Assembly (NCBI GenBank): GCA_964649715.1
Contig: CAZYTH010000003.1
Location: 4,713 to 68,712, forward strand
Origin: an uncultured Candidatus Saccharibacteria bacterium
Lineage (GTDB): Bacteria; Patescibacteriota; Minisyncoccia; Phycocordibacterales; UBA12445
Direction: 5' to 3'
Length of the DNA: 64,000 bases
Shown: in pieces, positions 9,939 through 50,837 of the stretch
Numbering within the stretch: the first letter of the stretch is position 1
How the letters are laid out: every line of letters starts with the position of its first letter
Translations under genes and position numbers: made by a program
The notes under the pieces: generated by a model
What the model saw: only the letters and a program-made list of their open reading frames with translations
Databases searched by the model: none
What the model was told of the DNA's origin: nothing

Positions 9939-10958
9939 TTAAACCGAAAAGTTACTTACAGCGTAAAGGTCGGAATCTGTACAATCCTCAGGGGTACTAT
10001 CATCAATTGCTTCTTCCAATACAACCTGATTTTGCTCTGGATTATTAACATCTGCTATTTTTATATTTTGGTCTAACAAAGGATTAATCATCACCCCACC
10101 AACGGGTATCGAAAGCTTTCCCTTGGACACCATATCAAGGAGTGTTCTTAGATCATCTTTTGAGAAAAAATCTATCGTTATTTTACCACCAAAGTCCCTC
10201 CTCTCAATATGCACCCTTGTTCCAAGCTTTTCTGTTAGTTTGCTTTCCATATCTAAAATATCAGGATCTACAATATATTCCTTTTTTCTAACCTTATCTG
10301 AAGCAATGTGTCTTGAGATAGATTCGGCCTCTCTAACCGTTAATTTCTTATAAATTATCTCCTTATAAAGAGTCATCTGCTCTTCCGGTCTATCACCAAG
10401 CATAAGAAGCGGTCGACAGTGCCCTTCGGTTATCTTGCTCCCAAGAATTCCCTCTTGTATATCTGGAGGCAGAGCTAATATTCTTATACTATTAGACACA
10501 TACTCGCGACTTTTTCCTATCTTGGCGGCTATCTCAATGTGTTTATAATTAAACTTTTCAGCAAGTTGCTGAAAGGCCTTAGCTCTATCTATTAAATTAA
10601 GATCTTCCCTTTGCAAGTTCTCGATTATTGCGAGTTCAAATTTTAAAGCATCTGACTGATCTCCGGTCCGTATAACCACTGGTACCTGCAAAAGACCAGC
10701 GAGTTTTGATGCACGCAGTCTTCTTTCTCCAGAAATTAATTCATACTCAACAGACAAACCACCATCGGGTGTTTCTATCTCTTTTCTCGTAGCCACAAGT
10801 GGCTGAAGAATACCGTACTGCTTAATAGAATCGGAAAGTTCCCTCAGTGACCTGTCTTCAAATTCTTTCCTGGGCTGAAACGGATTTGGCTTTATCTTTC
10901 CAACCTCTATCCAGAAGATAGAGTTACTTATACTATTCTTGCTTTCGATTGGTTCCAT
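9939..10958 (-). CDS. parB: ParB/Spo0J-family partition protein with a long C-terminal extension.
   Basis: ParB box (GILQPLVATRK...ELISGERRLRASKLAG) and an HTH region. No parA is adjacent. Confidence 0.8.
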   Translation of the reverse strand: MEPIESKNSISNSIFWIEVGKIKPNPFQPRKEFEDRSLRELSDSIKQYGILQPLVATRKEIETPDGGLSVEYELISGERRLRASKLAGLLQVPVVIRTGDQSDALKFELAIIENLQREDLNLIDRAKAFQQLAEKFNYKHIEIAAKIGKSREYVSNSIRILALPPDIQEGILGSKITEGHCRPLLMLGDRPEEQMTLYKEIIYKKLTVREAESISRHIASDKVRKKEYIVDPDILDMESKLTEKLGTRVHIERRDFGGKITIDFFSKDDLRTLLDMVSKGKLSIPVGGVMINPLLDQNIKIADVNNPEQNQVVLEEAIDDSTPEDCTDSDLYAVSNFSV

Positions 10959-27720: not shown

Positions 27721-29053
27721 GTCTTTTAAGCTTAGATGTGGACAAAATTTGAGGAGTTTTTCCTAAAGTTGAGGTTTTACTCATTAGGGAGTTTTTTGTC
27801 TCATTTTTAATAATAATTTTCCTACTTTTTTCTTTCATATTTTTAATTGTTTTATTTTTTCTTGTAAGAAGAACTAGCCTAAAAATACAAAGTAATATCC
27901 AAGAGATATTTCTAACGATTTTGAGGCTGACAACTCGCTATATATTTTCCATTCTGTTAAAATTAATTTTTAATGAAAAAAATAAAAATCACATTAATAT
28001 TTAAAGCTAAAATAAAAAATCTTAATGACGAGTTGCTAAAATGGTAAGTTGGCTAAATAATGCCTGAATCCTAAAAGCTTGAGTCTAATAGATTGAAAAT
28101 AAATGCTATTCTGCTATATGTGGTTTTCAAATTTCCTCTGATTTCAAATCAGTAACCTGAGTTTATCAAAGCCATAGAAAAATAAAAATAAAAACGTGGA
28201 TAACTTTAGTTTCAAATATTATTATGTTAAAAATAATTAATTGCTGGTTAGTCTACATAACATTTTTGCCATATTTCACGCAAAACATCTCTCTGAATTG
28301 ATATTTAAACCGAAACATAAGTCCACAAAATTGGGGTTTTTTGGCAATCCAGTGGTAAAATTTTTTCACAACACACTTGCTACAAAAAGTTAAGTATTTG
28401 AATTGGCTATTTTTTTTTAGACTATGTTAATATTAGAAGGTTGGTTCTCCATCTAAAAGATGGAGTTGAGACAAATAAAGGCTTTGACTTTGCCCAGCTA
28501 CCGAGGAAGAACAACTTTCTTGAAAAACGGTAAAAACCACCAAGGTGGAAAGGTGAAATAATAAAGTTTTTATATTTTGTTCTTTTATAAATAGGTTGGT
28601 TATTATCTAATCGCAAGAATACCAACCTCATGCACAGCTGAAGAGACGATTAGTTAGACGTGTTTTGTCGAACCTAGGAGGCCGTCAATACGTCTATAAA
28701 CAAAAGATCCATATTGGTATCGCAGATAACAGGTGCTCCGTCTGCGGGAGATACGAAAGCCAGTATGGAGATAAACCATCCACTTGGGATTGGTTAAGAC
28801 AACCGAGCATTGGGTTAACACCCAGACGTTAACAAACTGTGGTATCGTAAAATATTTACCACTGGAAACACCCGGATTTTTTTGAGTCACATTCTTTTCA
28901 ATCATATTAACCTGTAAAAGAAAGCGGATAAAAACAATTCTTCAGCCAAAAAGAACCGTGGGGGGCCCAGGCCAAACACCAGTTTTTATATCAGGACCAG
29001 TATGGTTTCAATAAACCAATTTGGTCCAAAATATAATATTCTGTTGTTTGGTT

Positions 29054-29088
29054 AAAAAAAGGAGGCCGGCCCGAAGGGGACGGCCTCC
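29054..29088 (-). terminator. strong intrinsic terminator on the minus strand inside the ORF-free region.
   Basis: GGAGGCCG-loop-CGGCCTCC followed by T7 on the minus strand. Confidence 0.6.
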
Positions 29089-29212
29089 TTGTAACTAGTT
29101 AATATTTTAAACAAAGTATTAACGTATTTTGCGAAATATTTTGTTCTTTGTGTTTAAAGTTTTTTTCAATAACATTTGATAAGAATGGTATCTGGTATCC
29201 TTTTGTTTTTTG

Positions 29213-29235
29213 GACCTTAATGGGTCCTTTTTTTG
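29213..29235 (+). terminator. intrinsic terminator on the plus strand.
   Basis: GGACC-ttaat-GGGTCC followed by TTTTTTT. Confidence 0.55.
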
Positions 29236-29502
29236 CTATTGACCCCGGCATCAGGCTGGTAGCAAGAAGATAACAAAAGTTTTTTGGGTCGCTGACAAGT
29301 TTTTTTATTTTTGTGTGTGAATATAATCAAAATATTGAAAGTCCTTTGAAATGCTGGCGAGATGGTCTGGGTGCAGAATTTTGTCCTCTATGGGGTCAAC
29401 TTATCCTCCCTCCCCCCTTTTTAGTGTTTTTAAAAAGAACATTAAAACGGGGCGAGAGGTTCGATAAGCCCTTAGATTATAAGAATTAAGTACACACTGC
29501 GA

Positions 29503-29670
29503 TGGCTAAAATAAAAGTCAAAACAGGTGGTGTCGCTCCCAATTCGGGGCAATATCAAGTTTCGGGAACGAAACACGAGATTACCCTGTCTAAAGGTGAG
29601 CGTGTTCCTCCTTATGGAGGAAAGGCAAAAGCTTTTGTTCTTGTCGATAAGACAAAACATAAGTAAGTAG
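29503..29670 (+). CDS. small (55 aa) basic protein of unknown function, below the ORF-track cutoff.
   Basis: ATG-initiated ORF MAKIKVKTGGVAPNSGQYQVSGTKHEITLSKGERVPPYGGKAKAFVLVDKTKHK. It sits immediately upstream of, and co-oriented with, the RNase H-like gene. Confidence 0.35.
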
Positions 29671-29724
29671 CCGATCACTGAACTTTTCTCGTCAGCATTT
29701 TAGGGGATTTTTTATTTTTTAAAC

Positions 29725-30519
29725 ATGTACGACCAAAATGCTGTAAAAATATATACAGATGGTTCTGCCAAGCCTAATCCAGGCAAGGGTGGTGTTGGTA
29801 TGGTTGTGGAGTTCCCAGACAATTTTAGCCTTGAAAATTTAGAATTAAATGAGGGTTATTTCATAAGCAATAATAATCGTATGGAATTGAGAGCGTGTAT
29901 ACATGCGCTTGAGTGGCTTTAGGGATATATATTCACCAGGGCCATTATCATAACCAATTCCGAATATGTCTGTTCAAATCACAAAAACGCTCCCTTTTGG
30001 AAAAAGAACCACTGGACCACCTCTGAGGGGAGGCCCTATGAAAATGTTGACCTTTGGGACACGTTCCTAAAAAACCGACAGAAAATAAGGTTTCCTGTCG
30101 AGTTGGTTTGGGAAAAGGGCAAAAAAAGGCCAATACTTATTCGCGTAGATGAACTTGCAAAAACGGGGGCCGATAGCCCGACAAAAATAGACCATGGTTT
30201 TCAACCTGGTAAATTTACCTCATCCAGAACACTGGGCGGAAAAACCGCCACGTTATATTCTTCGATGGGTGAGGAAATATTAATTCGTGTATATAAAAAA
30301 CGTATCTATGGCAAAAATGAAAACGCGATATATAAAATAACCTTCGATATTTATGATGAAATTAAGGGTATTTATACGGAAAAACGCTATGCTTATCTTA
30401 AGAATAATACCGTAGACCTAAAAAGAAATAATTGCTATCGCGTGGTATTTAATGACGATCCTAAGTTTCCGATGATTATTAAGGCGACAGAAATCGAGTA
30501 TCTGAAAAATAAAAACTGA
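29725..30519 (+). pseudogene. RNase HI-like gene with a C-terminal extension of about 110 aa. It is interrupted by a single in-frame TAG at 29920-29922, and catalytic residues are substituted.
   Basis: IYTDGSAKPNPGKGGVGMVV and NRMELRACIHALEWL match the RNase H N-terminus. After the TAG the same frame continues through IIITNSEYV...NVDLWDTFL...VDELAKTGA (Asp70 becomes Asn and the HxxH His is absent) into the 30103..30519 ORF. Confidence 0.6.
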
Positions 30520-30528
30520 GCCAGCACG

Positions 30529-31194
30529 CTACTTCTCAAAATTTATTCGCTTATAAATGGCCCTAGTGGTTTCCACATCTCTTTTGCAGTAGTCGCAAAT
30601 CTCTTTTACCTTGCCCGCTTTGTAGAAGTCATAGACTTGTGAACCATCTATTCCATCCTTTGGTGTAGGAATACCAAGCGCCAAGGCAACGTGCTCCAAT
30701 CCGGCCCCTTTTGTCTCTGTCCATTTGGACCATTCGTGCATAGTGTCGTATATAGGATCATGCCTATATCGAGCAAAATTAAGGTCTCTTGATGGTTTTA
30801 TACCGAGAACAATGGATCTCTGATACAGGAATTTAAAGTCGAAACCGAAGATATTGTGACCAATAAATAAATCTGCGTCTTTCACAAGATCCCAGAATTT
30901 TTGGAGTGTTTCCTTCTCGTTCTCTGGGTTACAGATAACTTCCGTCTCATCGTCATTTATTGCGTAAGCGATACAAAGAACACGGCCAAAGCCTCCATCG
31001 AAAGAGGTTCCTCTTACATAGTCATCAAATTTTGCCTCCTCCTTTTCTGGTAAATATTCCTCTACGACGACCTCCTCGGACATTTCTTTTCTTTTATTCT
31101 TCTTTTCTAATTTCTTTTGGAAGAGAAATCGGAGCGCCTCGTGCTTGCTCTCATCTGCCGGCAGTGTTTCTATATCAAAATATATTTTTTTCAT
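30529..31194 (-). CDS. DEDD-type 3'-5' exonuclease (RNase H-fold, PolB-exonuclease-like).
   Basis: YFDIETLP (Exo I), GHNIFGFDFKFL (Exo II) and YCKRDVETTRAIY (Exo III, Y-x3-D). Confidence 0.65.
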   Translation of the reverse strand: MKKIYFDIETLPADESKHEALRFLFQKKLEKKNKRKEMSEEVVVEEYLPEKEEAKFDDYVRGTSFDGGFGRVLCIAYAINDDETEVICNPENEKETLQKFWDLVKDADLFIGHNIFGFDFKFLYQRSIVLGIKPSRDLNFARYRHDPIYDTMHEWSKWTETKGAGLEHVALALGIPTPKDGIDGSQVYDFYKAGKVKEICDYCKRDVETTRAIYKRINFEK

Positions 31195-31336
31195 TTGTTA
31201 TTTTATTAAATTCCATTTATCAAGGAAATATCCCATTTCGTGATTTCTATTGCCAAGATATATTTTTTCATTTTAATTTTAATGCTAATAAATTACTTTT
31301 TTTATTATACGCCCATTGCGTAAATAATAAAAATAA

Positions 31337-31364
31337 AACAGGCCCGAGATGAGCCTGTTTTTTA
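31337..31364. terminator. hairpin terminator. An identical 26-nt copy occurs at 33340-33365.
   Basis: AACAGGCCCGAGATGAGCCTGTT followed by TTTTT. Confidence 0.55.
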
Positions 31365-31381
31365 GAAACTTGGTTTAAGAA

Positions 31382-31642
31382 TTAAAGAAACACTTCAATT
31401 GCACCCTCCCCTCCGTCCTGAATCTTGGATGGTCTGTATTTTATTCCATTCTTATTTAAAAAACTCTCCACAAAAGGTTTTAAGATTGGGCCATTTTCTC
31501 TGTAACTTGCCTTACCTGTAATAATTCTTATGTGTCTTGGTCTTTTATCCGCCAATAATTCATGAAGAACAATTTCTGCATCCCTTCTGGTGTGGCCATG
31601 AAAATCTATTTCCTCACTGGGGATTTGTTCGTATTTGTTCAT
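31382..31642 (-). CDS. Smr (small MutS-related) domain protein.
   Basis: IDFHGHTRRDAEIVLHELL...IRIITGKA matches the Smr pattern DLHG...A and ITGKG. Confidence 0.7.
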   Translation of the reverse strand: MNKYEQIPSEEIDFHGHTRRDAEIVLHELLADKRPRHIRIITGKASYRENGPILKPFVESFLNKNGIKYRPSKIQDGGEGAIEVFL

Positions 31643-31646
31643 GAAT

Positions 31647-32393
31647 TTATTTATTCACAGAAAACACTTCTCCATATTCAGTATTCAATTTTTCTGCAAA
31701 TTCGTATATTCGATTATATGACATGCCAAAAGAAACCGACTGAGGAATAACACAAAAAGAAGTTTTATCTGTCTTTGTAAAATACATTTGTCTTGTTATC
31801 CCATTGGGCGTTTTTCCAATTATTTCTGCCCAAGTTCCATCGTTTAAATATCTTAAGGAATAAAAAATAACCAAAACAGGAGCGTGCTTCTCTATTAAAT
31901 GTTTTAATTCTTGAATTCGCTTGGGTTTATAAGTAGTGAGATACTCCTTTCTGGAACTCAGCCCTTGCAATCCATATTCTCTATATAACCATGTTGACTC
32001 ATCGGCTTTTTTCGACGGTAATGGCATAAGCTCGATAGCGGCGCTTTCTTTTATTGCACTATCACCAAAGATTAGTCCTTGGTGTTCACGAATTTCCTGT
32101 TGAGATGGTATTCGGCGATTCTTTAAATATAGATAGAGAGCAATTGGATATCTCCATGTTGGTTGTACGGGAAAGGGTTCTTGAAACCACCTCATAAATT
32201 TCGGCAAATGAGATAAATCCTGACGTAAATCTACCATTGATTTTCCATCACAAGCAAGCATGAGATCTTCAAGTTCTGTTTCTGTAACGTCACCAAGACC
32301 CTCTTCCATTCCAATAAACCACACCTTTGCATCAAGGCTTCCATACCCCCAAAAGTTTTTTATTCTATTTTGTAAAATGTCTGGTGTGATCAT
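31647..32393 (-). CDS. hypothetical protein (248 aa), possibly a divergent uracil-DNA-glycosylase-superfamily fold. This is weak.
   Basis: WFIGMEEGLGD loosely resembles UDG motif A (GxxPG). It sits in an operon with Smr and SppA. Confidence 0.4.
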   Translation of the reverse strand: MITPDILQNRIKNFWGYGSLDAKVWFIGMEEGLGDVTETELEDLMLACDGKSMVDLRQDLSHLPKFMRWFQEPFPVQPTWRYPIALYLYLKNRRIPSQQEIREHQGLIFGDSAIKESAAIELMPLPSKKADESTWLYREYGLQGLSSRKEYLTTYKPKRIQELKHLIEKHAPVLVIFYSLRYLNDGTWAEIIGKTPNGITRQMYFTKTDKTSFCVIPQSVSFGMSYNRIYEFAEKLNTEYGEVFSVNK

Positions 32394-32482
32394 AAAATAT
32401 GTAGGTAATTAAGAATTTAATGTCGGCCATTCCAATAATGAAACTATATGAGATTCTACTTCTTTACTGTTCTGATCCAATA

Positions 32483-33301
32483 TTAATATTCGCAGACATT
32501 TATCTCTCCCATATCCACGCCCAGGATATCCGCTAAATATTCTTTAACTTCATATAGCCCTCCGATCTTGTCTATAAGGCCCGCCTCGATGGCTTTTGGA
32601 GGGATAATTGTTGATCCGTCAGCAAACTTGGCGACGTCTGAAATATCCAGTCCCCTGTTTGTGGCAATATCTTTAACCATAACTTCATGAAAATGTTCGA
32701 GGTCTTTCATTATCATTTGTCTTTCTGTATAAGTTAGAGGCCTGTCACCGTTAAACATGTCTTTATACTTACCTGATTGAAATTGATTGTAGTTGTATCC
32801 TTCTTTTTTGCTTTTCTCAACATCGTCAAAGAAAGATTGTATTATTGCAATAGAACCCAAGTCTGAAAATTCAGAAGCGAAAATTTTGTCTGCTCCAGTA
32901 GCAAGATGATAAGCGGCGGAGGTTCCTTGTTCTTTTATCAGTGCAACTGTTGGCTTTTTAACTCTTTTTAACGCTCTAGATATTTCTTGCCCAATCACTG
33001 GGCTTCCTCCTCCTGAATCTATCTCAATGATGATTGCCTCAACTTCTGGGTCTTCGTCTGCTTCTTCTATCAGGTCATAAATATCTCCAGCGACCGCTTC
33101 ATCTGTCCAGTCTTCGTTTCCCCCATTCTTATAACTTACGATCTCACCTCTTACTGGTATCTTTGCAACGTTGCAGTCACTGGAATAATCTTCCGGCTCA
33201 ATTATTACGTATAAAACAGAGACAAGAACTAAAAGGAGAAAGGACATTGCGACAGTGTCGAAGAATCTTCTCCATGTTATTTTTGAGAGGATGTTTTTCA
33301 T
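32483..33301 (-). CDS. sppA: signal peptide peptidase SppA (S49, 36K type).
   Basis: N-terminal transmembrane segment and EAIIIEIDSGGGSPVIGQEI...KPTVALIKEQGTSAAYHLATGADKIFA (Ser-Lys dyad region). Confidence 0.8.
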   Translation of the reverse strand: MKNILSKITWRRFFDTVAMSFLLLVLVSVLYVIIEPEDYSSDCNVAKIPVRGEIVSYKNGGNEDWTDEAVAGDIYDLIEEADEDPEVEAIIIEIDSGGGSPVIGQEISRALKRVKKPTVALIKEQGTSAAYHLATGADKIFASEFSDLGSIAIIQSFFDDVEKSKKEGYNYNQFQSGKYKDMFNGDRPLTYTERQMIMKDLEHFHEVMVKDIATNRGLDISDVAKFADGSTIIPPKAIEAGLIDKIGGLYEVKEYLADILGVDMGEINVCEY

Positions 33302-33341
33302 TTGATTATCAATTTAGCTTTTAAATTAAAATGATGCAAGA

Positions 33342-33364
33342 AACAGGCCCGAGATGAGCCTGTT
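33342..33364. repeat. second copy of the 31337 terminator hairpin, downstream of the 928-aa gene.
   Basis: AACAGGCCCGAGATGAGCCTGTT identical to the 31337 copy. The T-run is weak. Confidence 0.5.
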
Positions 33365-33384
33365 TTAACAAATCTATTTTAAAA

Positions 33385-36171
33385 TTAAAATCCAAACCAA
33401 GACCAGAAACGAGACCATACACTTTTCTTCACAACCGGAGGTTCTGTGTGTGTTGTGCTTGCGGTAAGTGTGGGCGTGGTTGTGGTACTAATAATTGGCA
33501 CAGGAGAGCCCGTTATCCAAGAGGCCAGACGACTAAACCAGGATAATTTCGATTGCTCCATTCGTGGAGGTGTCCTTTGGTCAGAAAATTCTTTATCTAA
33601 ATCTTTTGATTCAATAACGATCGATTCCTTAACAATAGACTCCTTCATTGGTTGAGCTTGCTGAGTTTGTTCTTCTGTTTTTTCCTGTACCTGAATAGCT
33701 TTTGGCTGTTCTACTACTTTCCCTGTAATTTGTTCTTTAGGGCTGGTAATTAATTCTCCTTTTTTATCTGTTTTAGCAATAAATAATTTTAGGGATTTAA
33801 GCTTATTCGCATCCATATTTTCTAAGGCTGAAAATTTAGAGTTAATATTGATCGGAATACTAGATAATGCACCCAAATTATTAAACCAATTATTTATTAC
33901 ATTCATAGATAATATTAACCCCATGGTATTATCTTCTCCAACATACCCACCCGAAGGTATTCCTATAAACTTACCGTTCTTTAAATAGGCGCCACCGCCA
34001 GAACTTCCGTGCTCTAAAATAGCAGTAGTTTTAAAATAATCTCCACTGTCGTCGATTCCACTAAAATCACCACTTGTGTACGTTAACTTTTTACCGAAAG
34101 CTGCAGGGTAACCGTAAGTTAAAATCTTTTCACCTAAAGCAATACTTATATTGCCCCTTGTGATATCAATGGGTGTAAAATTTATATTTCCGGAATTTCT
34201 AATTTTTAATAAAGCGATATCTTTATCCGGTGATGTCTTAACAACGTCAGCCACAAACCATCCATAGGGTTCATCGTCAAAATTGTTTATAAATCCAACA
34301 TAACAGCCTACGGTCTCAGAAATAACATGTTTATTGGTCAGAATAATTCCGATCGCATTAATTATCGTACCAGACCCCTGCGATGCAGATTGCGCATCAA
34401 CCGGACAAATAAGTTTTACTGTGGCCTTTAAAATCTTATCCTGGTTTACAACTTCTATAGACTCATCTGGTGGAGGTTGTGGCGGTCTATTTGGGGGTGT
34501 GCAGTATCTATCTGTAATGGGTGGTGCTGTTTGAACGTTAGGACAATCATAGGTTTTAGTACAAGTTCGGCTTTGTATTCCAGAAATAGAACATTCTCCC
34601 CAATAAGAACAGGTCCATTCATCAGCTGTACAAGATGGAATATAGGAACAAGATTGGGTCGTTATTGGCGAAGCAACTCCACCTTCACAATTTGATATCT
34701 TATTACATGTTCTTGATTGTGTTCTGTTTGCAGAACAAGCAGACCAACCACCACAGGACCAATCGCTAGAAGTACAAGGTGGCATATAAGTGCAATTCTG
34801 ACTTAAAATTGGACCACCACCAACACAACCATTCGGCAATGAAGAAATTATTGTTCTTGTTTGGGTTCCGTTAGAAGAACATGTGGACCATTCAGAATAT
34901 GTCCACGAAGTACATGTGGGTGGAATATATGTACAGTTTTGAATTATCACTGGCTCATATGTTCCGGTACAGATATCTGAATTTTTATTACATACTCTGG
35001 TTTGTTTACCACTAGGATTACACGCACCCCAAACACCGCAAGTATAATCATCAGCGTCACATGCTGGGCTACAAGATTGGGTTGTTGCCGGAGAGGGGGT
35101 ATCGATTAAAGAACAATCATTTGTCTTTGTGCATGTTCTATTCTGAGATCCACTGCGAGAGCAGGTGCTCCATGATTCGCATGTCCATGTGTCAGATATA
35201 CAGGCAGGGGTACATGCTTGGGTCGTAATTGGGGGAGGAGTTGTTATTCCAGGACAATCCAAAGACATGTAGCATGATCTTGTTTGCGAACCGTCTATTG
35301 AACATGAATTCCAATCATTACATATCCATGTATCAGCAGTACAAGTAGGAACATAGGTACAAGACTGCGTTGTGGCTGGTGATGGATCGTTTGTAAGCGG
35401 ACAATCATATGTCCTCGTGCATGTTCTGGTCTGGGTGCCATTAGACTGACATCCGGCCCAGCTTCCGCAAGACCAAGTATCAGCAGTACATTCTGGTGTG
35501 CAAGATTGAGTCGTTTCCGGCGACGGTGTATCTACCGCAGGACAATCTAATGCCTTGGTACAGGCTCTAGATTGATTACCGTACAGAGAACAAGAACTCC
35601 ATGACCCACAATCCCAAATATCTTGAGCGCAATGATCCTTAAGGAAAAAGCTACCCGATAGATAAGATGATGGCTGAGCGGTATTGTAACTCACCTCCCT
35701 ATAACAAGTATCTGTGGTGCATTTTTGTGCACAACTATCAACTTCACAAATTGGGGCCCTACCAAAGACTGTAGGAATTTCAATTTTCAGATTAACCGCC
35801 TTATTGTCGTAGCAAGATGGATCGGCGTATAATGAAGAAAAATAATTTAATGGGACTTTTAATATTATCTGGGAATCACTCCAAGAAATAACATTACTGT
35901 TAGATACTTCGGGAATTGAAGCGTTGACATAACTAACCCCGCAGCTATCGTTGATATACGCATACCCACTAACGTAACCCAACCCACTACTGTTGCGCTG
36001 AAAATGCGTAAAACGCCAAGAGCTATTAAAATTACCACCATTTATAGTAATGGTATCACCAGGAGAAATAATACTTGGGGTAATAGATGTAATAAAAGGC
36101 TCCCCGACTGCTAACGACGTGCCACCAAAAACGAAGAACAACGTAACCACAAACAACAGAATTTTTTTCAT
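33385..36171 (-). CDS. 928-aa secreted multidomain protein. It has an N-terminal IPT/TIG-like domain, eight tandem thrombospondin type-1-like Cys repeats, a trypsin-like (S1/Do-type) serine protease domain and a Thr-rich, Trp-rich C-terminal tail.
   Basis: Signal peptide. Repeats of about 47 aa follow the pattern W-x-C-x-x-W-S-x-C-S-x(3-4)-Q-(S/T)-R-x-C-T...DCP...TTQSC. Protease motifs: TNKHV (His), DIALLKI (Asp) and GSSGGGAY (Ser). Confidence 0.8.
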   Translation of the reverse strand: MKKILLFVVTLFFVFGGTSLAVGEPFITSITPSIISPGDTITINGGNFNSSWRFTHFQRNSSGLGYVSGYAYINDSCGVSYVNASIPEVSNSNVISWSDSQIILKVPLNYFSSLYADPSCYDNKAVNLKIEIPTVFGRAPICEVDSCAQKCTTDTCYREVSYNTAQPSSYLSGSFFLKDHCAQDIWDCGSWSSCSLYGNQSRACTKALDCPAVDTPSPETTQSCTPECTADTWSCGSWAGCQSNGTQTRTCTRTYDCPLTNDPSPATTQSCTYVPTCTADTWICNDWNSCSIDGSQTRSCYMSLDCPGITTPPPITTQACTPACISDTWTCESWSTCSRSGSQNRTCTKTNDCSLIDTPSPATTQSCSPACDADDYTCGVWGACNPSGKQTRVCNKNSDICTGTYEPVIIQNCTYIPPTCTSWTYSEWSTCSSNGTQTRTIISSLPNGCVGGGPILSQNCTYMPPCTSSDWSCGGWSACSANRTQSRTCNKISNCEGGVASPITTQSCSYIPSCTADEWTCSYWGECSISGIQSRTCTKTYDCPNVQTAPPITDRYCTPPNRPPQPPPDESIEVVNQDKILKATVKLICPVDAQSASQGSGTIINAIGIILTNKHVISETVGCYVGFINNFDDEPYGWFVADVVKTSPDKDIALLKIRNSGNINFTPIDITRGNISIALGEKILTYGYPAAFGKKLTYTSGDFSGIDDSGDYFKTTAILEHGSSGGGAYLKNGKFIGIPSGGYVGEDNTMGLILSMNVINNWFNNLGALSSIPININSKFSALENMDANKLKSLKLFIAKTDKKGELITSPKEQITGKVVEQPKAIQVQEKTEEQTQQAQPMKESIVKESIVIESKDLDKEFSDQRTPPRMEQSKLSWFSRLASWITGSPVPIISTTTTPTLTASTTHTEPPVVKKSVWSRFWSWFGF

Positions 36172-36288
36172 TTTTTTTTAACTACTAACAATTTAATTAT
36201 TTTTTAATTATACTCCTATCAAAATAATAATAAAAATAAAGGTGGCCCGAAAATGGACCACCGTTTATTATCCCCCATCATCCCCTCT

Positions 36289-36504
36289 CTACACCTCAAA
36301 AGACTGTATATACTCCTCCGCCTCAGGATAAGACAGGGATTGAATGTATGAGAGACTTTGTTCCCTGTCTTCTTGCTCGTGGACATTTCTATAGATGAGT
36401 TCTGTGAGTTTTCGTAACTGTTCCCTCGTAATACCTCTTTCATTTTCTTCTCGTAGATATTTGTTGTGGTAGTAGACCCTACTATCTAGCGTATTTTTAG
36501 ACAT
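36289..36504 (-). CDS. small hypothetical protein.
   Basis: ORF only. Acidic with a coiled-coil-like sequence. Confidence 0.3.
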   Translation of the reverse strand: MSKNTLDSRVYYHNKYLREENERGITREQLRKLTELIYRNVHEQEDREQSLSYIQSLSYPEAEEYIQSFEV

Positions 36505-36528
36505 ATATATTTTTTAAGTTTGTAATAT

Positions 36529-37197
36529 CTAACGAAGTCCAATGTAAGATGAAATGGAATCACTAGCTTCAGCTTTCGTCATGTGAGGGATCTCTTCTAA
36601 AAGTTTCTGCTTTTCCTCGTCGTGATAAACATGACGCTTTATGAGAACGGCAAGAAGTTCTTTTTGTCTTTCTGTAATGGGAACTTCTTTTGGGGTATTT
36701 TCAGCCTCAGAGGAAACATTACTTGTCGGCATATCCTCAAGATCCTGAGTGAATATATCAGAAAGGCCCGTCGTGCGTATCACGGCGCTAACAAAGGCGC
36801 GTTTTTCTGCGAGCTTAATTGTTGTATTGGGATTGTTTTGATGGTCTTTTAGTTGTGATGATCCTCGGCCCTCGCCAACTATTTTATTATCTCGACCCAA
36901 CAGACACTTATAGGCAACTAAACCCTCCACACCCGGAAAACATGCCATTGTATCCGAGTCTTTCTCGAAACGAGACACGAGTCCCCAGACCGAGGCCAAC
37001 TTCTCGGCCCCTCCCTTTGCTAAACTCTTCTTACCTTTAATAACGAAATAGTCTTGGCCCTCTCGGAGTAATGGCATTACTTGCGAGATAAAGTAAGATC
37101 GTCTCAAAAGTAAATCATCCACCCCCTGTTTAAAGCTCTGGAGCGCTTCTGTATTTCCAAGGCGAACCATACCTTTATCTATTGTTTCTGTATTCAT
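36529..37197 (-). CDS. putative phage single-strand annealing protein (ERF-like). This is weak.
   Basis: GGAEKLASVWGLVSRFEKDSD resembles the ERF core (SSYARKYcLnGLFGIDD). Context includes an exonuclease and a recombinase. Confidence 0.35.
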   Translation of the reverse strand: MNTETIDKGMVRLGNTEALQSFKQGVDDLLLRRSYFISQVMPLLREGQDYFVIKGKKSLAKGGAEKLASVWGLVSRFEKDSDTMACFPGVEGLVAYKCLLGRDNKIVGEGRGSSQLKDHQNNPNTTIKLAEKRAFVSAVIRTTGLSDIFTQDLEDMPTSNVSSEAENTPKEVPITERQKELLAVLIKRHVYHDEEKQKLLEEIPHMTKAEASDSISSYIGLR

Positions 37198-37207
37198 TTG
37201 TTTTTAA

Positions 37208-37426
37208 TTATCTTCTTTTAATAACTACGGCCCCGTCTGAATAATCGATATCTATCTTCTGGCCCACACGGAAGCCAAATCGATAAAGGATGCTATTAGC
37301 TATCCTTATCATTGGCTTCTGGATGCCAGATTTTAGGCGACAATATTTTCCGGTCGCATAATTGACTGTCATATGTTTTCTCATTTGACTGGCAAAGGGG
37401 TAACTTGTAGATAATAGAAAAGGCAT
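37208..37426 (-). CDS. AbrB/MazE-like swapped-hairpin DNA-binding protein. The true start may be the internal MIRIAN.
   Basis: C-terminal GQKIDIDYSDGAVVIKRR matches the SpoVT/AbrB pattern. Confidence 0.45.
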   Translation of the reverse strand: MPFLLSTSYPFASQMRKHMTVNYATGKYCRLKSGIQKPMIRIANSILYRFGFRVGQKIDIDYSDGAVVIKRR

Positions 37427-37683
37427 ATCTTGCGAGGAAAACGTTTGATAACTTTCCCGTCCTTATCTTTCTTCTCAATAATGACAGTAGATCTGATAAC
37501 TCCTTTTTCACCCTTGCGAACTTTGTAACCGTTAGCCAGCCATTTCTCATATGTAAGGCAATTGGTGTAAGGGTCAAATATTTTTCCCTCTTCCTCTCCC
37601 CATATGGAAATTATCTGCTGACGCACATCTTCATAGGTCTCTTTTGATCCTGTATAATTGGATTTTTCTTTTATTTCCAACAT
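37381..37683 (-). CDS. DUF1738/ArdC-N-like ssDNA-binding domain protein.
   Basis: YTNCLTYEKWLANGYKVRKGEKGVI resembles the ArdC_N W.T..QA...G..VRKGEKG motif. Confidence 0.4.
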   Translation of the reverse strand: MLEIKEKSNYTGSKETYEDVRQQIISIWGEEEGKIFDPYTNCLTYEKWLANGYKVRKGEKGVIRSTVIIEKKDKDGKVIKRFPRKICLFYYLQVTPLPVK

Positions 37684-37948
37684 ATTTTTTCTTCTAAACG
37701 AATAATAAAAAACCAGTGACTAGCTGGCTTGGACATAACATCCGAGAAAAGGGTGATAATCATAAAACCAAAAAGTAATGATGATGTAGGGAAAATAAAA
37801 GAAGGAAGTAGCTATATTCGTCTGTTTCTAAATTGGTCAGGGGGGGTTGTTTCATTTGGGACCCCCAGACGACAAAAGACACTGTGGGTAAGGAACTTAT
37901 CTCTGTTTTTTATGCTTTTTAAAAGTTGGACTATTGTAAAATGTATGT

Positions 37949-38518
37949 ATGGATAGAATATTAGTTGAAAGCTGTTTTTCGCTTGATATAAGCCAGTTTA
38001 AGGGAGATATTATGCGCTTTAAGAGCTCATGTGAAAGTGTGGCTGGACTATATGCCACAAAGCATGATGAAAAAGAGATAAAGATAGATTATGTCATTGA
38101 AGATGATGGACACGATGGGATAATCCGGTTATCGATTAATGGTGCCAGTTCGCAGGGCATTGTGCTCTGTGACAAGGTGCTGACTTATGGGAGTAGAACA
38201 TATTTTACCTGTGAATGTGGTTCTTTGTTCTCAAGGCTGTATATGGTGCCAAATAGCACAGCCTTAAAATGCCGAAAATGCCACCATTTGAAATACGAGA
38301 TAAATTCATTCAATAGGAATAGCAAACATGGGAAACTTTTCCTAGCTATGCACTTTGCGCTTAAAGCCACAAAGGAAAGAGAGACTGTGAAAAGAATGTT
38401 TATTAATGGGCGTTATACAAAAGCTTTTATTCGTAGCCTAAGAACAGCTAACAAAGCTGGGTGGACAGGTTACAGTAGGGAGGCCAGGAGGCTTCTGAGG
38501 GCTATGTGGTTTACGTAG
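37949..38518 (+). CDS. zinc-ribbon hypothetical protein.
   Basis: CDKV...CECG...CRKCHH. Confidence 0.4.
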   Translation: MDRILVESCFSLDISQFKGDIMRFKSSCESVAGLYATKHDEKEIKIDYVIEDDGHDGIIRLSINGASSQGIVLCDKVLTYGSRTYFTCECGSLFSRLYMVPNSTALKCRKCHHLKYEINSFNRNSKHGKLFLAMHFALKATKERETVKRMFINGRYTKAFIRSLRTANKAGWTGYSREARRLLRAMWFT

Positions 38519-38887
38519 AGGGTTTTTATGTAGCACAGAGCATTTTACACAGGGTTCAGTGCACAGGGCGAGGAGCACGGAATACAGGGCACAGGGCATA
38601 GAGCATAGAATTCCGTAAATGGTTTGAGTGGGGATGTAGAGACCCTTCTTAAAATTAAATCTTGCCCTGACGATACTGACGATGTTTTTTGAATATTTAT
38701 ACTAAAGAAAGGAGGTGTTTTATTTCTTTTTTGGTTAATTGTGGGGGGGGTAGCTTCCCGAAAAGATTACTATCTAATGATTTTAACTGTTGAATTTTCA
38801 AAAATTTGCTTCAATTCTTTAATGCTTAATTTAATAGAATCAGAGTGCTTACAAAGTTCTGAAATCCATTTTTCTAGTCCACAAAAA

Positions 38888-48303: not shown

Positions 48304-50484
48304 TTATTTAGCGATTGTCACAGCTTCATCAAACTTTATTGAAAGTAGCTTAGACACACCGTCACCCCCCATAGTTACACCATAAAGTATTCCCGCGCGA
48401 GACATAGTCTCTCTATTGTGAGTAACGACAATAAGCTGAGAGATTTTTGAAAGATTCTCGAGCATATCTCCATATTTCTTTGAGTTAGACTCATCTAGTG
48501 CCGCATCTGTCTCGTCAAGAACTAAAAATGGAGGCGGATTCACCTGGGATACCGCAAAAAGAAGAGCAATTGACGTAAGCGCTCTTTCTCCTCCAGAAAG
48601 CATCGTGAGGCCTTTTATTTTTTTTCTCGGCAAATTAACATTTATATCTATGCCAGCCTCAGGCTTCTTTTCGTCTTTTTCCATAAAATTTTCACTTTTT
48701 GGATTTTCAGCATTTTCTTCGAACAATCTCTCTTCGGTTGTTTTCTTCTTTTCGGGGAAATTAAGAGTGAGCTCCGCTGAACCTCCACCGAACATCGACA
48801 CAAAAAATTCCTGAAATTGCTTATTTATTTTTTCCAACCCCTTTTTAAATTCAATGTCTATCTTTTCAGAAAGTTCCAACATCAAAGAACGCAAGCCTTC
48901 TGCACTGTCGACAAGATCGGCAACTTCTTTCTCTAAAAACTTTTCTCTCTCTTCGGTCTCATTATATTCTTTAAGGACATCTTCTCCCGCATTTCCCATA
49001 TCTTCAAGTCTTATTTTTATTCTTTCTATCTTTCTCCTTCTTTCTTCCTGCATAATCCTTGGCTCGTTATCTATTTGTGTTTCGATTCCTCCAAAATCCT
49101 TATAATTAACAGCCTCCCTTCCAGCCAATACGACCGCCTCGGTAAGTTCCATCTTAAAAGCACCCTCTTCCAGCAAAAGTTTTTCTTCTTTAGCCCGAAC
49201 AGCATTTAATTGTGCCAATATTTCGCTTTTTTCCGCACGCAAAAGATACAGCGCCCTCTCCGAATCCCTGAATTCATCCTTTTTATTCTCTAAACCAGAT
49301 TTGATCGAGGATATTTCACCACCAACTCGCGATTCGCTTTCGCACAGAGAGACGATCATCTTCTCAAATTCCCCCCGCTTGGTTCTTAACTCCGAAACTT
49401 CCCTTTCTCTCTCTTTCCTAAGCTCATCTTCCCTGCTTTCATCTAATGTCTTCACTACCACTTGTCCGCAATAAGAACAGACTTTCTCCCCCTTATCATT
49501 TACTTTTATGTTTTTATTATGATTCCCCCTCTCCATGTCACACTTTATTTCTATCAAAGCATCTAATCTGCCAATCTCTCTTTCTAGGTTGGTTTTTTTG
49601 TTTCTAATTTCCAGAAGATTTACCTCTAAATCCTTCATTTTGTCGGAAGATTCCTTTGGCAAAACATTGACTTCTGCAAGCATCTGGCTCAACCTCGCTG
49701 TTTCCGCATCTATATTCTTTATTTGTTCTTCAGGTAAGGTTCGATTCTTTAAAATATCCGCTCTGAAATTATTCAGGTAATTATCTTCTCTTTTAAAATA
49801 TTCTTTATATAGGTTTATTAGCTCGAGTCTCATCTCCTCCGCCTTTTTTACTTGCTCAATCTGTTTTCTGAGAAAACGAAGATGGGGAGCTATTTCTCTT
49901 CTTAAAGACTCTACCTCTTTTATATTTTCTTTGGTCTTTTGGAGCTTTTTTTCGCTTTCCTCTTTTTTATATTGATAAACCTTAAGACCAAGGGCATCTT
50001 CTATCATCTCTCGTCTCTCAAATATATTTGCATTCAAAATCCTATCAGCTTCACCCTGACTAATTATATGATGACTAGACACACCCAAAGACACAGCCGA
50101 GAGGAGTTCTATCACATCTTTTAAGCGAACCTTGCTCCCATTTATATAATATTCGTTTGTTCCATCACGATAGATATGGCGAGATATTGCGACCTCGTCG
50201 AACTCCAAATTGAATTTTCTCTCTTTGTTATCAAACACAACCAGAACGCTTGCGTGGTTCAGTTTTGAGTAACCGGCAGAACCGTTGAAGATTAGGTCTT
50301 CTCCCCTCTTCCCTCTAAGCGATTTCAGTGACTGTTCTCCAAGCGCCCAGCGAAGCGCCTCGGCTACGTTTGATTTACCAGATCCATTTGGACCCACAAC
50401 CGCCGTTATAGAAGACTCAAAGTCTAAAACCGTCTTTTTTGCAAAAGACTTAAAACCAAGCAATTCTACTCGTTTTAGATTCAC
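48304..50484 (-). CDS. smc: short (726 aa) SMC-family ATPase. A CxxC motif sits where a hinge would be expected, in the middle of the coiled coil.
   Basis: N-terminal head (LLGFKSFAKKTVLDFESSITAVVGPNGSGKSNVAEALRWALGEQS). C-terminal signature and D-loop (LSGGERALTSIALLFAV...FLVLDETDAALDESN...GVTM). KVCSYCGQVV lies in the coiled-coil midpoint. Confidence 0.8.
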   Translation of the reverse strand: MNLKRVELLGFKSFAKKTVLDFESSITAVVGPNGSGKSNVAEALRWALGEQSLKSLRGKRGEDLIFNGSAGYSKLNHASVLVVFDNKERKFNLEFDEVAISRHIYRDGTNEYYINGSKVRLKDVIELLSAVSLGVSSHHIISQGEADRILNANIFERREMIEDALGLKVYQYKKEESEKKLQKTKENIKEVESLRREIAPHLRFLRKQIEQVKKAEEMRLELINLYKEYFKREDNYLNNFRADILKNRTLPEEQIKNIDAETARLSQMLAEVNVLPKESSDKMKDLEVNLLEIRNKKTNLEREIGRLDALIEIKCDMERGNHNKNIKVNDKGEKVCSYCGQVVVKTLDESREDELRKEREREVSELRTKRGEFEKMIVSLCESESRVGGEISSIKSGLENKKDEFRDSERALYLLRAEKSEILAQLNAVRAKEEKLLLEEGAFKMELTEAVVLAGREAVNYKDFGGIETQIDNEPRIMQEERRRKIERIKIRLEDMGNAGEDVLKEYNETEEREKFLEKEVADLVDSAEGLRSLMLELSEKIDIEFKKGLEKINKQFQEFFVSMFGGGSAELTLNFPEKKKTTEERLFEENAENPKSENFMEKDEKKPEAGIDINVNLPRKKIKGLTMLSGGERALTSIALLFAVSQVNPPPFLVLDETDAALDESNSKKYGDMLENLSKISQLIVVTHNRETMSRAGILYGVTMGGDGVSKLLSIKFDEAVTIAK

Positions 50485-50600
50485 TTATGTATTATAGCAA
50501 TTTTATAAAATACAGGAAACACAAAATTATTATGAAATTCTTTTACGTTAAAGCCAAAATAAAAAAACTCCCACCAAGGTGAGAGTAAAAATATCTTATT

Positions 50601-50837
50601 TTAGACAAAGAGACAAAGAATAGACAACGCAGATAAAATAATAAAAACAGTGGCGAAGATAACTTTTATATTATTATCATAAATGAAACTTTCATGATCT
50701 TCATTGTCATACTTGGTATCAATACCTAATTTCTGAGGAATGATTGCGTCTTCCTTGTGACAAACTTCACATTTGTCTAAAGAAACACAAAATGTGGATT
50801 GTCTTGGATCGCATGAAATACAAACCTTCTTTTTCAT
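50601..50837 (-). CDS. small Cys-rich protein with a C-terminal transmembrane segment.
   Basis: CISCDP...C...CEVCH and a hydrophobic tail. Confidence 0.35.
   Translation of the reverse strand: MKKKVCISCDPRQSTFCVSLDKCEVCHKEDAIIPQKLGIDTKYDNEDHESFIYDNNIKVIFATVFIILSALSILCLFV

What the first reader, a model, noticed from the sequence alone, without database searches (positions are those of the whole stretch)
48304..50484. Miniaturised SMC-like ATPase with a CxxC motif in place of a hinge
The head domains are clearly SMC-like (GPNGSGKSN ... LSGGE ... LDETDAALD ... GVTM). The protein is only 726 aa and has no hinge domain. A CxxC (KVCSYCGQVV) sits at the midpoint of the coiled coil, reminiscent of the Rad50/SbcC zinc hook. 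No sbcD/mre11 or scpA/scpB is adjacent. This could be a reduced condensin or a hybrid SMC/Rad50-type protein.
Basis: partly seen in the sequence, partly recalled or inferred. Interest (0 to 1): 0.55.

Follow-up and report, generated by a model that had tools for sequence, protein, structure and literature searches.

The report
Hinge-less mini Smc with zinc hook
This is the chromosome-folding Smc protein of a tiny Paceibacteria (CPR) bacterium: it has lost the universal hinge domain and about half of its arms, and it carries a conserved Rad50-like CxxC motif at the tip that probably joins two copies through a zinc ion.

Summary
A 726-aa ORF on the minus strand (48304-50484) has intact SMC ATPase motifs, no hinge domain, and a CxxC at aa 336-339.

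It is the Smc orthologue, not SbcC/Rad50. The Smc model scores 548 bits against about 57 for Rad50. The best solved-structure matches are bacterial Smc heads. In 66 of 82 related loci the gene follows rnc, as smc does in B. subtilis.

The short hinge-less form is the norm in Paceibacteria. All 150 best 50%-identity cluster representatives are 643-782 aa, and at least 551 reference genomes carry relatives. Most have a helical hairpin at the tip and no cysteine.

The window's clade has an invariant C-x-x-C-x-Q, usually the only cysteines in the protein. A second clade (Nomurabacteria-type) has CPLCG. Apex profiles of both clades find the Pyrococcus Rad50 zinc hook as the best of 177,635 PDB sequences (E 0.02 and 2.5e-5).

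Most likely mechanism: a homodimer joined by one zinc ion held by four cysteines. This mirrors the engineered, functional B. subtilis Smc(Zh) chimera.

Not shown: zinc binding, ScpAB in these genomes, absence of a second Smc. I found no prior description. Verdict: new variant of a known kind, interest about 0.66.

The parts
48304..50484 (-). smc gene: 726-aa hinge-less mini-Smc (GTG start, TAA stop)
   Evidence: ORF list and translation. SMC_N 8e-66. TIGR02168 548 bits. Exact protein P0001 is in NCBI on a 93-kb contig.
49984..50484 (-). N-terminal half of the ABC ATPase head (aa 1-167), with Walker A aa 31-38 (nt 50371-50394), invariant R57 and Q-loop Q143
   Evidence: Aligns 1:1 with B. subtilis Smc residues 1-209. 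Motifs. Invariant columns.
49537..49983 (-). N-terminal arm helix (aa 168-316), with a kink at aa 272-277. The neck (aa 168-230) is highly conserved.
   Evidence: AF2 secondary structure. Conservation 0.5-0.76 in the neck against 0.25-0.45 in the distal arm.
49435..49536 (-). Apex (aa 317-350), non-helical, sequence MERGNHNKNIKVNDKGEKVCSYCGQVVVKTLDES. It takes the place of the hinge.
   Evidence: AF2 model shows short strands at 326-328 and 334-336, pLDDT 50-62. Translation. No SMC_hinge hit.
49468..49479 (-). CxxC (C336-S-Y-C339), the putative half of an intermolecular Cys4 zinc site (zinc hook). It is followed by G340 and the invariant Q341.
   Evidence: Translation. Invariant in 41 of 41 hook-bearing relatives. 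Apex profile best matches Rad50 hook 1l8d and 6zff with CxxCG aligned.
48895..49434 (-). C-terminal arm (aa 351 to about 530): helix 351-454, loop 455-475, helices 476-496 and 500 onward. It includes the Smc 'joint' and the conserved ERIKIRLEDMG...EY..ER motif.
   Evidence: AF2. Aligns with B. subtilis Smc head-proximal coiled coil in 5xg3 (query 487-578). Best Foldseek hit is Smc head + coiled coil + joint, 5xei.
48304..48894 (-). C-terminal half of the head (aa about 531-726): FGGG 565-568, signature LSGGE 629-633 (nt 48586-48600), Walker B LVLDE 654-658 (nt 48511-48525), D-loop, H-loop H689
   Evidence: Column conservation 0.8-0.9.
48658..48750 (-). Lineage-specific, Lys/Glu-rich, disordered insertion in the C-head (aa 579-609), absent from B. 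subtilis Smc
   Evidence: Gap between aligned stretches 487-578 and 610-721 against 5xg3. pLDDT below 50. The same kind of insertion is seen in the hook-less relative P0041, aa 604-628.
50485..50500 (-). TTGCTATAAT (extended -10-like) ending 6 nt before the GTG. The gene probably has its own promoter and a very short or absent leader.
   Evidence: Read directly from the sequence. The two-hexamer scan did not list it, so this is weak.
50567..50586 (-). Terminator-like hairpin plus T-run closing the upstream 78-aa ORF, so smc is a separate transcription unit
9939..10958 (-). ParB (339 aa) with the GERRLRA box, the likely chromosomal loader of Smc. It is context, not part of the gene.
   Evidence: Pfam ParB_N, HTH_ParB and ParB_C. 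Sequence. Its role in loading is inferred from B. subtilis (PMC5344682, PMC4785775).

Best explanation
The gene encodes the organism's Smc, the core ATPase of bacterial condensin, in a miniaturised form typical of Paceibacteria.

Each 726-aa chain folds back on itself. This puts a normal Smc ABC-ATPase head with conserved neck and joint at one end of an arm of about 150-185 residues (roughly 22-25 nm, about half of B. subtilis Smc). The other end carries a 34-residue loop with C336-x-x-C339.

The hinge domain has been lost. Two chains are proposed to be held together at the tip by one Zn2+ bound by the four cysteines of two CxxC motifs, as in the Rad50/SbcC zinc hook.

The heads then engage and disengage with ATP. 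A kleisin (ScpA, with ScpB) would close the ring. The complex would be loaded at ParB and translocate or extrude DNA like canonical Smc-ScpAB.

Shown:
- Smc identity of the head, neck and joint.
- Absence of a hinge.
- Positional orthology of the family.
- Invariance of the CxxC.
- Sequence-profile similarity of the apex to the Rad50 hook.

Inferred:
- Zinc binding and dimerisation through the CxxC.
- Presence of ScpAB.
- Loading by ParB.
- Loop extrusion.
For: 1. Smc identity.
- TIGR02168 SMC_prok_B scores 548 bits. The best Rad50 model scores 57, RecN 42 and ASRP 69.
- phmmer finds B. subtilis Smc heads 5xg3 and 3zgx at 1e-90 to 1e-92.
- Foldseek's best hits are Smc head + joint and Smc-ScpA complexes. 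Rad50 appears only at ranks 29-30.
- All ATPase motifs are intact.

2. Orthology.
- In 66 of 82 related loci the order is (rnhB-rpmF-)nusB-rnc-smc-x-rnr-rpsP-khpA-trmD.
- B. subtilis has rncS directly upstream of smc, in the order rncS/smc/ftsY (PMC1188057).
- In the window's own clade the locus is uvrB-uvrA-smc...rnr, conserved down to 55% identity.

3. No hinge.
- Pfam gives no hit at E<=1.
- None of 240 listed relatives carries PF06470.

4. CxxC.
- C336, C339 and Q341 are invariant.
- The two cysteines are usually the only ones in the protein.
- No other conserved metal ligand is present in the apex. A complete Cys4 site therefore needs two chains.

5. Rad50-hook similarity.
- The apex profile of the window clade ranks 1l8d and 6zff first and second of 177,635 PDB sequences (E 0.022 and 0.09).
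- The profile of the second hook clade gives E 2.5e-5 and 1.7e-4 for the same two entries, with CPxCG aligned.

6. Feasibility.
- B. subtilis Smc with its hinge replaced by the P. furiosus Rad50 zinc hook supports normal growth. The authors concluded that the fold of the dimerisation domain is irrelevant (PMC5344682).
- The reverse swap also works in Rad50, according to that paper's title and abstract listing (PMC6969161); I did not read its text.

7. Neck conservation is much higher than in the distal arms, which suggests a retained binding partner.

8. A ParB with GERRLRA lies in the window.
Against: - Zinc binding and dimerisation are not tested.
- The AF2 apex has low confidence (pLDDT 50-62). 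It is a longer loop than the tight Rad50 hook.
- The Rad50-hook match for the window's own clade is only marginal (E 0.02). CPxCG is a generic zinc-knuckle motif, so the similarity may be convergent.
- Most of the family has no cysteine at the apex yet presumably works. A hook is therefore not required for the hinge-less architecture.
- ScpA and ScpB were not found in the 64-kb window or in any flank examined. Whole genomes could not be searched.
- A second, canonical Smc elsewhere in the genome is not excluded.
- The arm is shorter than any engineered arm that worked in B. subtilis (253-267 aa).
- No parS was found in the window.
Confidence: 0.6

Rival explanations
1. It is the Smc orthologue, but the CxxC is not an intermolecular zinc hook. 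It could be an intramolecular structural knuckle capping the hairpin, a redox-sensitive disulfide, or a docking site for another protein. Dimerisation would then rely on arm-arm contacts, the heads and the kleisin.
For: Most of the family lacks any apex cysteine and has a helical hairpin instead, so apex metal bridging is dispensable in this architecture. The AF2 apex is a low-confidence 34-residue loop rather than a tight hook. The Rad50 match for this clade is only E 0.02.
Against: Only two cysteines are conserved, with no other conserved His, Cys, Asp or Glu ligand in the apex. One chain therefore cannot complete a zinc site. Strict invariance of both Cys plus Q341 argues for a precise function. 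A second clade has an even more Rad50-like CPLCG hook. Neighbouring small ORFs are not conserved, so no obvious partner exists.
Confidence: 0.25
2. It is a paralogue of Smc with a different job, for example repair or tethering. A canonical hinge-bearing Smc would be encoded elsewhere in the genome.
For: Whole genomes could not be inspected. In the window's clade the gene sits next to uvrA-uvrB.
Against: The family occupies the ancestral rnc-smc...rpsP-khpA-trmD position. All 150 best cluster representatives are short. These genomes are very small, with near-complete contigs of 0.5-0.7 Mb. Smc duplication is said to be unknown in prokaryotes (PMC12153180).
Confidence: 0.07
3. It is simply SbcC/Rad50, the ATPase of the SbcCD/Mre11-Rad50 nuclease.
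For: CxxC at the coiled-coil apex, no hinge, and size in the SbcC/Rad50 range. A weak SbcC_Walker_B hit (E 0.054).
Against: Rad50 models score 49-57 bits against cut-offs of 700-1087, while the Smc model scores 548. PDB and Foldseek rank Smc far above Rad50. No Mre11/SbcD is present in the window or flanks. The gene shows smc-type synteny.
Confidence: 0.03
4. It is an SMC-like component of an anti-phage or anti-plasmid system (Lamassu LmuB, MADS mad3, Wadjet JetC).
For: PADLOC mad3 scores 200 bits and LmuB 87 bits.
Against: These scores are generic head similarity, far below the Smc score. The flanking ORFs have no PADLOC hits. The neighbourhood is housekeeping and syntenic across hundreds of species. 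No effector or partner genes are present.
Confidence: 0.02

Closest known systems
Bacterial Smc of Smc-ScpAB condensin (B. subtilis Smc; TIGR02168)
   Same: Head, neck and joint sequence and fold (548 bits; 5xg3 6e-92; Foldseek 5xei). All ATPase motifs are present. The genomic position downstream of rnc is shared across the family. A ParB is present in the window.
   Different: No hinge domain (PF06470). Arms are about 150-185 aa instead of 344. A CxxC loop sits at the apex. The C-head has a 31-aa disordered insertion. The protein scores just below the NCBIfam cut-off (567), so NCBI names it 'AAA family ATPase'.
Engineered B. subtilis Smc(Zh) and Mini-Smc (Burmann et al. 2017, PMC5344682)
   Same: Smc heads and arms with a zinc hook in place of the hinge. 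The chimera supports normal growth, which shows that the architecture can work.
   Different: That construct is artificial, uses the P. furiosus Rad50 hook, and worked only with arms of at least about 253 aa. The protein here is natural, has its own hook sequence and has shorter arms.
Rad50/SbcC zinc hook (PDB 1L8D, 6ZFF)
   Same: CxxC (often CPxCG) at the apex of an antiparallel coiled coil, with two cysteines per chain. The apex profiles of both hook clades rank it as their best PDB match.
   Different: The heads are not Rad50-type and no Mre11/SbcD partner is present. In the window's clade the CxxC lies in a longer loop (15-25 residues on the N-terminal side) and is followed by an invariant Gln.
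Archaea-specific SMC-related proteins (ASRP: ClsN/coalescin, Sph1/2; PMC9389158)
   Same: SMC-superfamily ATPases of about 600 aa with a zinc-hook motif and no hinge, implicated in chromosome organisation.
   Different: A different family (NF045487 69 bits against a cut-off of 300). ASRPs are archaeal and are not the Smc orthologue.
'Hinge-less SMC' of marine Actinobacteria-like organisms (PMC12153180, 2025)
   Same: Smc-type heads with a coiled coil and no hinge, found in metagenomes.
   Different: Those proteins are reported to lack the CXXC motif, are assigned to Actinomycetes and are described as a small cluster. The family here is from Paceibacteria, is very large and has hook-bearing clades.

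Membership tests
Smc (bacterial condensin ATPase) | ABC-type head split between the N- and C-termini, with Walker A, Q-loop, signature, Walker B, D-loop and H-loop | tested here: met
   Motifs located. SMC_N 8e-66. 5xg3 6e-92.
Smc (bacterial condensin ATPase) | Passes the curated equivalog model TIGR02168 (cut-off 567.35 bits) | tested here: not met
   548.3 bits, just below the cut-off, because the hinge and half of the arm positions of the 1181-position model are unmatched.
Smc (bacterial condensin ATPase) | Long intramolecular antiparallel coiled coil with a head-proximal joint | tested here: met
   AF2 helices 168-316 and 351-565 with matched breaks. The best Foldseek hit is Smc head + coiled coil + joint. 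The arm is about half the usual length.
Smc (bacterial condensin ATPase) | Central hinge dimerisation domain (PF06470) | tested here: not met
   No hit at E<=1. The apex is a 34-residue loop. None of 240 relatives has PF06470.
Smc (bacterial condensin ATPase) | Orthologous genomic position (rnc-smc) | tested here: met
   Met for the family: 66 of 82 loci have rnc directly upstream, as in B. subtilis. In the window itself rnc lies 26 kb away (21625-22320) and the locus is uvrB-uvrA-smc.
Smc (bacterial condensin ATPase) | Kleisin and kite partners ScpA and ScpB in the same genome | not testable with these tools
   Absent from the 64-kb window and all flanks.
Rad50/SbcC | CxxC zinc hook at the coiled-coil apex | tested here: inconclusive
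   The motif is present and invariant. The apex profile hits 1l8d at E 0.022 for the window clade and 2.5e-5 for the second clade. Metal binding is not testable here.
Rad50/SbcC | Rad50/SbcC-type head (curated models) | tested here: not met
   NF002572 57 bits against 1087, NF003034 49 against 700, SbcC_Walker_B E 0.054.
Rad50/SbcC | Mre11/SbcD nuclease partner, usually adjacent | tested here: not met
   None among 50 window ORFs or in the flanks of relatives.
Archaea-specific SMC-related protein (ASRP/ClsN) | Passes NF045487 (cut-off 300) | tested here: not met
   68.7 bits.
RecN | Passes TIGR00634 (cut-off 408) | tested here: not met
   42 bits.
Lamassu LmuB / MADS mad3 defence ATPases | Specific model match plus partner or effector genes nearby | tested here: not met
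   mad3 200 bits and LmuB 87 bits, which is generic head similarity only. Neighbours have no PADLOC hits. The context is housekeeping.

The most novel reading that the evidence does not exclude
Across a whole class of ultra-small bacteria (Paceibacteria), the single condensin Smc has dispensed with the hinge and half of its arms. At least two lineages have then separately fitted the tip with a Rad50-type zinc hook, or one ancestor had it and several lineages lost it.

If true, nature has repeated the Smc(Zh) experiment. The hinge fold, its DNA-binding surface and a roughly 50-nm arm would not be required for a working bacterial condensin. A 2 x 726-aa zinc-bridged SMC would be the smallest natural loop-extruder candidate.
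Probability: 0.5. Interest if true: 0.75.

Novelty: new variant of a known kind. Interest (0 to 1): 0.66.

Why it matters
The hinge is treated as a defining, universal part of SMC proteins. It has been implicated in dimerisation, DNA binding and DNA entry.

A large natural lineage whose only Smc lacks the hinge would be independent evolutionary evidence that the nature of the dimerisation module is not critical. That conclusion has so far been drawn from engineered chimeras. The sub-clades that use a Rad50-like zinc hook strengthen the point.

Three further consequences follow:
- It gives a compact natural SMC (about 22-25 nm arms) for structural and single-molecule work on how arm length relates to function.
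- It links the SMC and Rad50 architectures in a way that bears on how the superfamily diversified.
- It explains why these genes are annotated only as 'AAA family ATPase' in NCBI MAG records: they fall just under the Smc model cut-off.

Tried and rejected
Readings rejected:
- SbcC/Rad50, RecN, ASRP and defence-system readings, rejected on model scores and context.
- The conserved small neighbour ORFs as possible partners. The 78-aa CxxC-rich ORF upstream and the 84-aa and 143-aa ORFs downstream have no counterpart in 85 related loci.

Searches that found nothing useful:
- parS in the window: only one 3-mismatch site, which is at chance level.
- ScpA/ScpB: Pfam on 50 window ORFs, a motif scan, and 10-kb flanks of four relatives all found nothing. 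This does not show absence from the genome.
- Literature for ScpA in Patescibacteria: nothing relevant.
- Supplement of PMC5344682 for CPR entries: none.

Tool failures:
- Exact look-up of the window protein's contig: not on record.
- The first AF2 job failed and was rerun.
- The profile search of apex alignment A2 against the 5.8-billion-protein set returned nothing, not even family members. This is probably a filter or word-index artefact, and it cost one search.
- The Foldseek afdb50 library was unavailable.

Caveat on the trees: the NJ trees are crude (no outgroup, no bootstrap). I use them only together with pairwise identities to say that the two hook clades are not each other's closest relatives.
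Full report
**1. Observation**

The finding's coordinates contain one long ORF on the minus strand (48304-50484, GTG start, 726 aa). The plus-strand translation is full of stops.

- Walker A GPNGSGKS, aa 31-38.
- Q-loop SQGE, aa 142-145.
- Signature LSGGE, aa 629-633.
- Walker B LVLDE, aa 654-658.
- D-loop DAALD, H-loop VVTHN and GVTM.
- KVCSYCGQVV, with the CxxC at aa 336-339.

Pfam gives SMC_N over aa 3-711 (8e-66) and no SMC_hinge at E<=1. The start is supported by 1:1 alignment with B. subtilis Smc from residue 1. A TTGCTATAAT element lies directly upstream, preceded by a terminator-like hairpin that closes the previous ORF.

**2. What kind of SMC-superfamily protein it is**

- The curated Smc model TIGR02168 scores 548 bits, just under its 567-bit cut-off.
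- Rad50 models score 49-57 bits, RecN 42 and the archaeal ASRP model 69.
- Against PDB sequences the best matches are B. subtilis Smc head constructs (5xg3 6e-92, 3zgx 1e-90). Rad50 appears only at about 1e-12.
- The alignment to 5xg3 covers the N-head and neck (1-209), the head-proximal C-terminal coiled coil (487-578) and the C-head (610-721). A 31-residue insertion lies between the last two.

An AlphaFold2 model was built from 34 relatives (mean pLDDT 73). It shows:
- an N-terminal arm helix, aa 168-316;
- a 34-residue non-helical apex, aa 317-350, containing the CxxC;
- a C-terminal arm, aa 351-565, with a loop at 455-475.

Foldseek places the model closest to 'Smc head with coiled coil and joint' (5xei, 1e-26) and to Smc-ScpA complexes. 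Rad50 ranks 29-30. PADLOC gives only generic head matches (mad3 200 bits, LmuB 87 bits) and nothing for the neighbours.

The protein is therefore Smc by its head, neck and joint. It lacks the hinge and about half of the arm. The arm is about 150-185 aa, against 344 aa in B. subtilis.

**3. Context and orthology**

The window is ordinary chromosome of a low-GC (about 37%) bacterium.
- On the upstream side of the gene lie uvrB and uvrA.
- On the downstream side lie RNase R, a cyclophilin, fmt, def, priA and mnmA.
- Elsewhere in the window are parB, topA, dprA, relA/spoT, serS, gap, rnc, a nusB-NUDIX fusion, L9 and S1.

None of 50 ORFs tested is ScpA, ScpB, SbcC or SbcD/Mre11. The uvrB-uvrA-smc...rnr-PPIase order is kept in relatives of 72% and 55% identity.

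A scan of one genome per GTDB species found at least 551 genomes with a relative. The best 80 are all Paceibacteria/Parcubacteria lineages: Vogel-, Yonath-, Lloyd-, Taylor-, Kaiser- and Adlerbacteria, and Minisyncoccia.

In 66 of 82 loci RNase III lies immediately upstream on the same strand. The wider order is dnaE-rnhB-rpmF-nusB-rnc-smc-x-rnr-rpsP-khpA-trmD-rpoBC. In B. subtilis, rncS is directly upstream of smc in the rncS/smc/ftsY region (PMC1188057). From my own knowledge, rpsP-ylqC-rimM-trmD follow there.

The family thus sits at the ancestral smc position. This is the strongest argument that it is the Smc orthologue rather than a side branch.

**4. The short form is the rule in this lineage**

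- The first homologue search returned thousands of hits. The best 120 were all 663-782 aa and had no hinge domain.
- An exhaustive HMMER scan of 1.84 billion cluster representatives gave 30,928 hits. All 150 best representatives were 643-782 aa.
- Only 8 of these 150 carry a mid-chain CxxC. The majority have no cysteine at the apex, and often none in the whole protein.
- An AF2 model of one such protein (P0041, pLDDT 81) shows two extra helices (328-347, 351-373) forming a helical hairpin at the tip. It has no hinge fold.

**5. The CxxC**

In the window's clade (37-41 sequences, down to about 42% identity) the motif is C-x-x-C-[GAKN]-Q, mostly CPYCGQ. C336, C339 and Q341 are invariant, and usually there are no other cysteines. 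The surrounding apex is otherwise variable (column conservation about 0.25). It contains no other conserved metal ligand, so a four-ligand site needs two chains.

A profile of 22 apex segments was searched against all PDB sequences. It ranks the P. furiosus Rad50 zinc hook first and second (1l8d E 0.022, 6zff E 0.09), with the CxxCG aligned. This is marginal on its own.

One GTDB hit (L060) carries CPLCGN. Searching with it uncovered a second, large clade of Nomurabacteria-type proteins of 706-729 aa. All 120 listed members have CP[LTMV]CG at the apex and only 2-3 cysteines. Their hook is compact: GRIEGMLEAKENKVKI[AS]GRCPLCGNEI. Its profile hits the same two Rad50 hook entries at E 2.5e-5 and 1.7e-4.

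The two hook clades are not each other's nearest relatives:
- The window protein is 54% identical to its nearest hook-less relative and 50% to the nearest member of the second clade.
- The second clade is 65% identical to a hook-less 750-aa protein and 52% to the first clade.
- Crude NJ trees agree.

The hook was therefore gained at least twice or lost several times. I cannot say which.

**6. Mechanism**

The best-supported reading is a homodimeric Smc whose tips are bridged by one zinc ion bound by 2 + 2 cysteines. The zinc site takes over the constitutive dimerisation role of the hinge.

The architecture is known to work. Burmann et al. replaced the B. subtilis hinge with the P. furiosus Rad50 zinc hook and obtained normal growth. 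They concluded that the fold of the dimerisation domain is irrelevant. Shortened 'Mini-Smc' variants worked only at discrete arm lengths, the shortest being 253-267 aa. Natural hinge-bearing Smc show arm-length modes at 238, 341 and 515 aa, and possibly at 163 aa (PMC5344682). The title of a second paper states that the hook and an SMC hinge are interchangeable in Rad50 (PMC6969161); I saw only its title and abstract listing.

The arm here (about 150-185 aa) lies near that possible minor mode. It is shorter than any engineered functional arm.

The neck is far better conserved than the distal arm, which suggests a retained kleisin-binding site. A ParB with a GERRLRA box is in the window. ScpAB, zinc binding, ParB-dependent loading and DNA translocation are all inferences.

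**7. Rivals**

| Reading | Confidence | Main point |
|---|---|---|
| CxxC is not a dimerising hook (intramolecular knuckle, redox switch or docking site) | 0.25 | Kept alive by the cysteine-free majority and the low-confidence apex model |
| Paralogue, with a canonical Smc elsewhere | 0.07 | Argued against by synteny and tiny genomes, but whole genomes were not checked |
| SbcC/Rad50 | 0.03 | Tested and not met |
| Defence-system ATPase | 0.02 | Tested and not met |

**8. Novelty**

Full-text searches found several related items:
- the engineered Smc(Zh);
- Rad50 and SbcC hooks;
- archaeal ASRP/ClsN proteins with hooks;
- a 2025 report of 'hinge-less SMC' from marine Actinobacteria-like organisms that explicitly lack CXXC.

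They found no description of a natural bacterial Smc orthologue with a zinc hook, or of the Paceibacteria hinge-less family. The library omits most subscription journals, so prior description cannot be excluded.

Some members have been public since 2015. A few are named 'Chromosome partition protein Smc', but most are named 'AAA family ATPase'. This is consistent with the score falling just below the NCBIfam cut-off.

I rate it a new variant of a known kind, with interest about 0.66.

Noticed in passing
Relatives P0034-P0120, P0121-P0268; model m337615860a5f (P0041 aa 317-379): Most Paceibacteria mini-Smc have neither a hinge nor any apex cysteine. AF2 predicts a helical hairpin (two helices of about 20 residues) at the tip. 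How these proteins dimerise at the apex, if they do, is unexplained.
   Followed up: partly
L060 3001-5142; P0269-P0388: A second hook clade (Nomurabacteria-type, 706-729 aa) has a compact GRCPLCGNEI hook. It matches the Pyrococcus Rad50 hook at E 2.5e-5. Its closest relative outside the clade is a hook-less 750-aa protein (65% identity).
   Followed up: partly
window 25340-38520: A probable integrated mobile element. A large serine recombinase (25345-27087) abuts tRNA-Ala(GGC). It is followed by about 3 kb of very small ORFs, a PolB-exonuclease-like protein (30529-31194), an S49 peptidase, a 928-aa trypsin-like protein and an ArdC-N-like ORF (37381-37683). GC skew changes sign around 28-30 kb.
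   Followed up: no
window 31336-31361 and 33341-33366: A perfect 26-nt direct repeat, AAACAGGCCCGAGATGAGCCTGTTTT, that is itself a hairpin (terminator-like). It flanks the S49-peptidase/248-aa gene pair.
   Followed up: no
window 22336-23238 (-): A NusB-NUDIX fusion protein (300 aa). It is conserved next to rnc in at least 62 Paceibacteria loci.
   Followed up: partly
window 11925-14747 (+): A 940-aa secreted, coiled-coil-rich protein with repeated Cys-containing segments and no Pfam match.
   Followed up: no
window 50601-50837 (-): A 78-aa ORF directly upstream of smc with two CxxC pairs and a C-terminal hydrophobic helix. It is not conserved in related loci, so it is probably unrelated to the Smc hook.
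   Followed up: yes
window 48658-48750 (-), aa 579-609 of the Smc: A Lys/Glu-rich disordered insertion in the C-terminal head between the FGGG strand and the signature motif. It is present in both hook-bearing and hook-less family members and absent from B. subtilis Smc.
   Followed up: partly
window 20507-21544 (-): A protein combining sigma-70 region 4 with a HARE-HTH domain, an unusual architecture, next to rnc.
   Followed up: no
window 9939-10958 (-): ParB with a GERRLRA box but no adjacent ParA. No convincing parS site exists in the 64-kb window (best match has 3 mismatches, chance level).
   Followed up: partly
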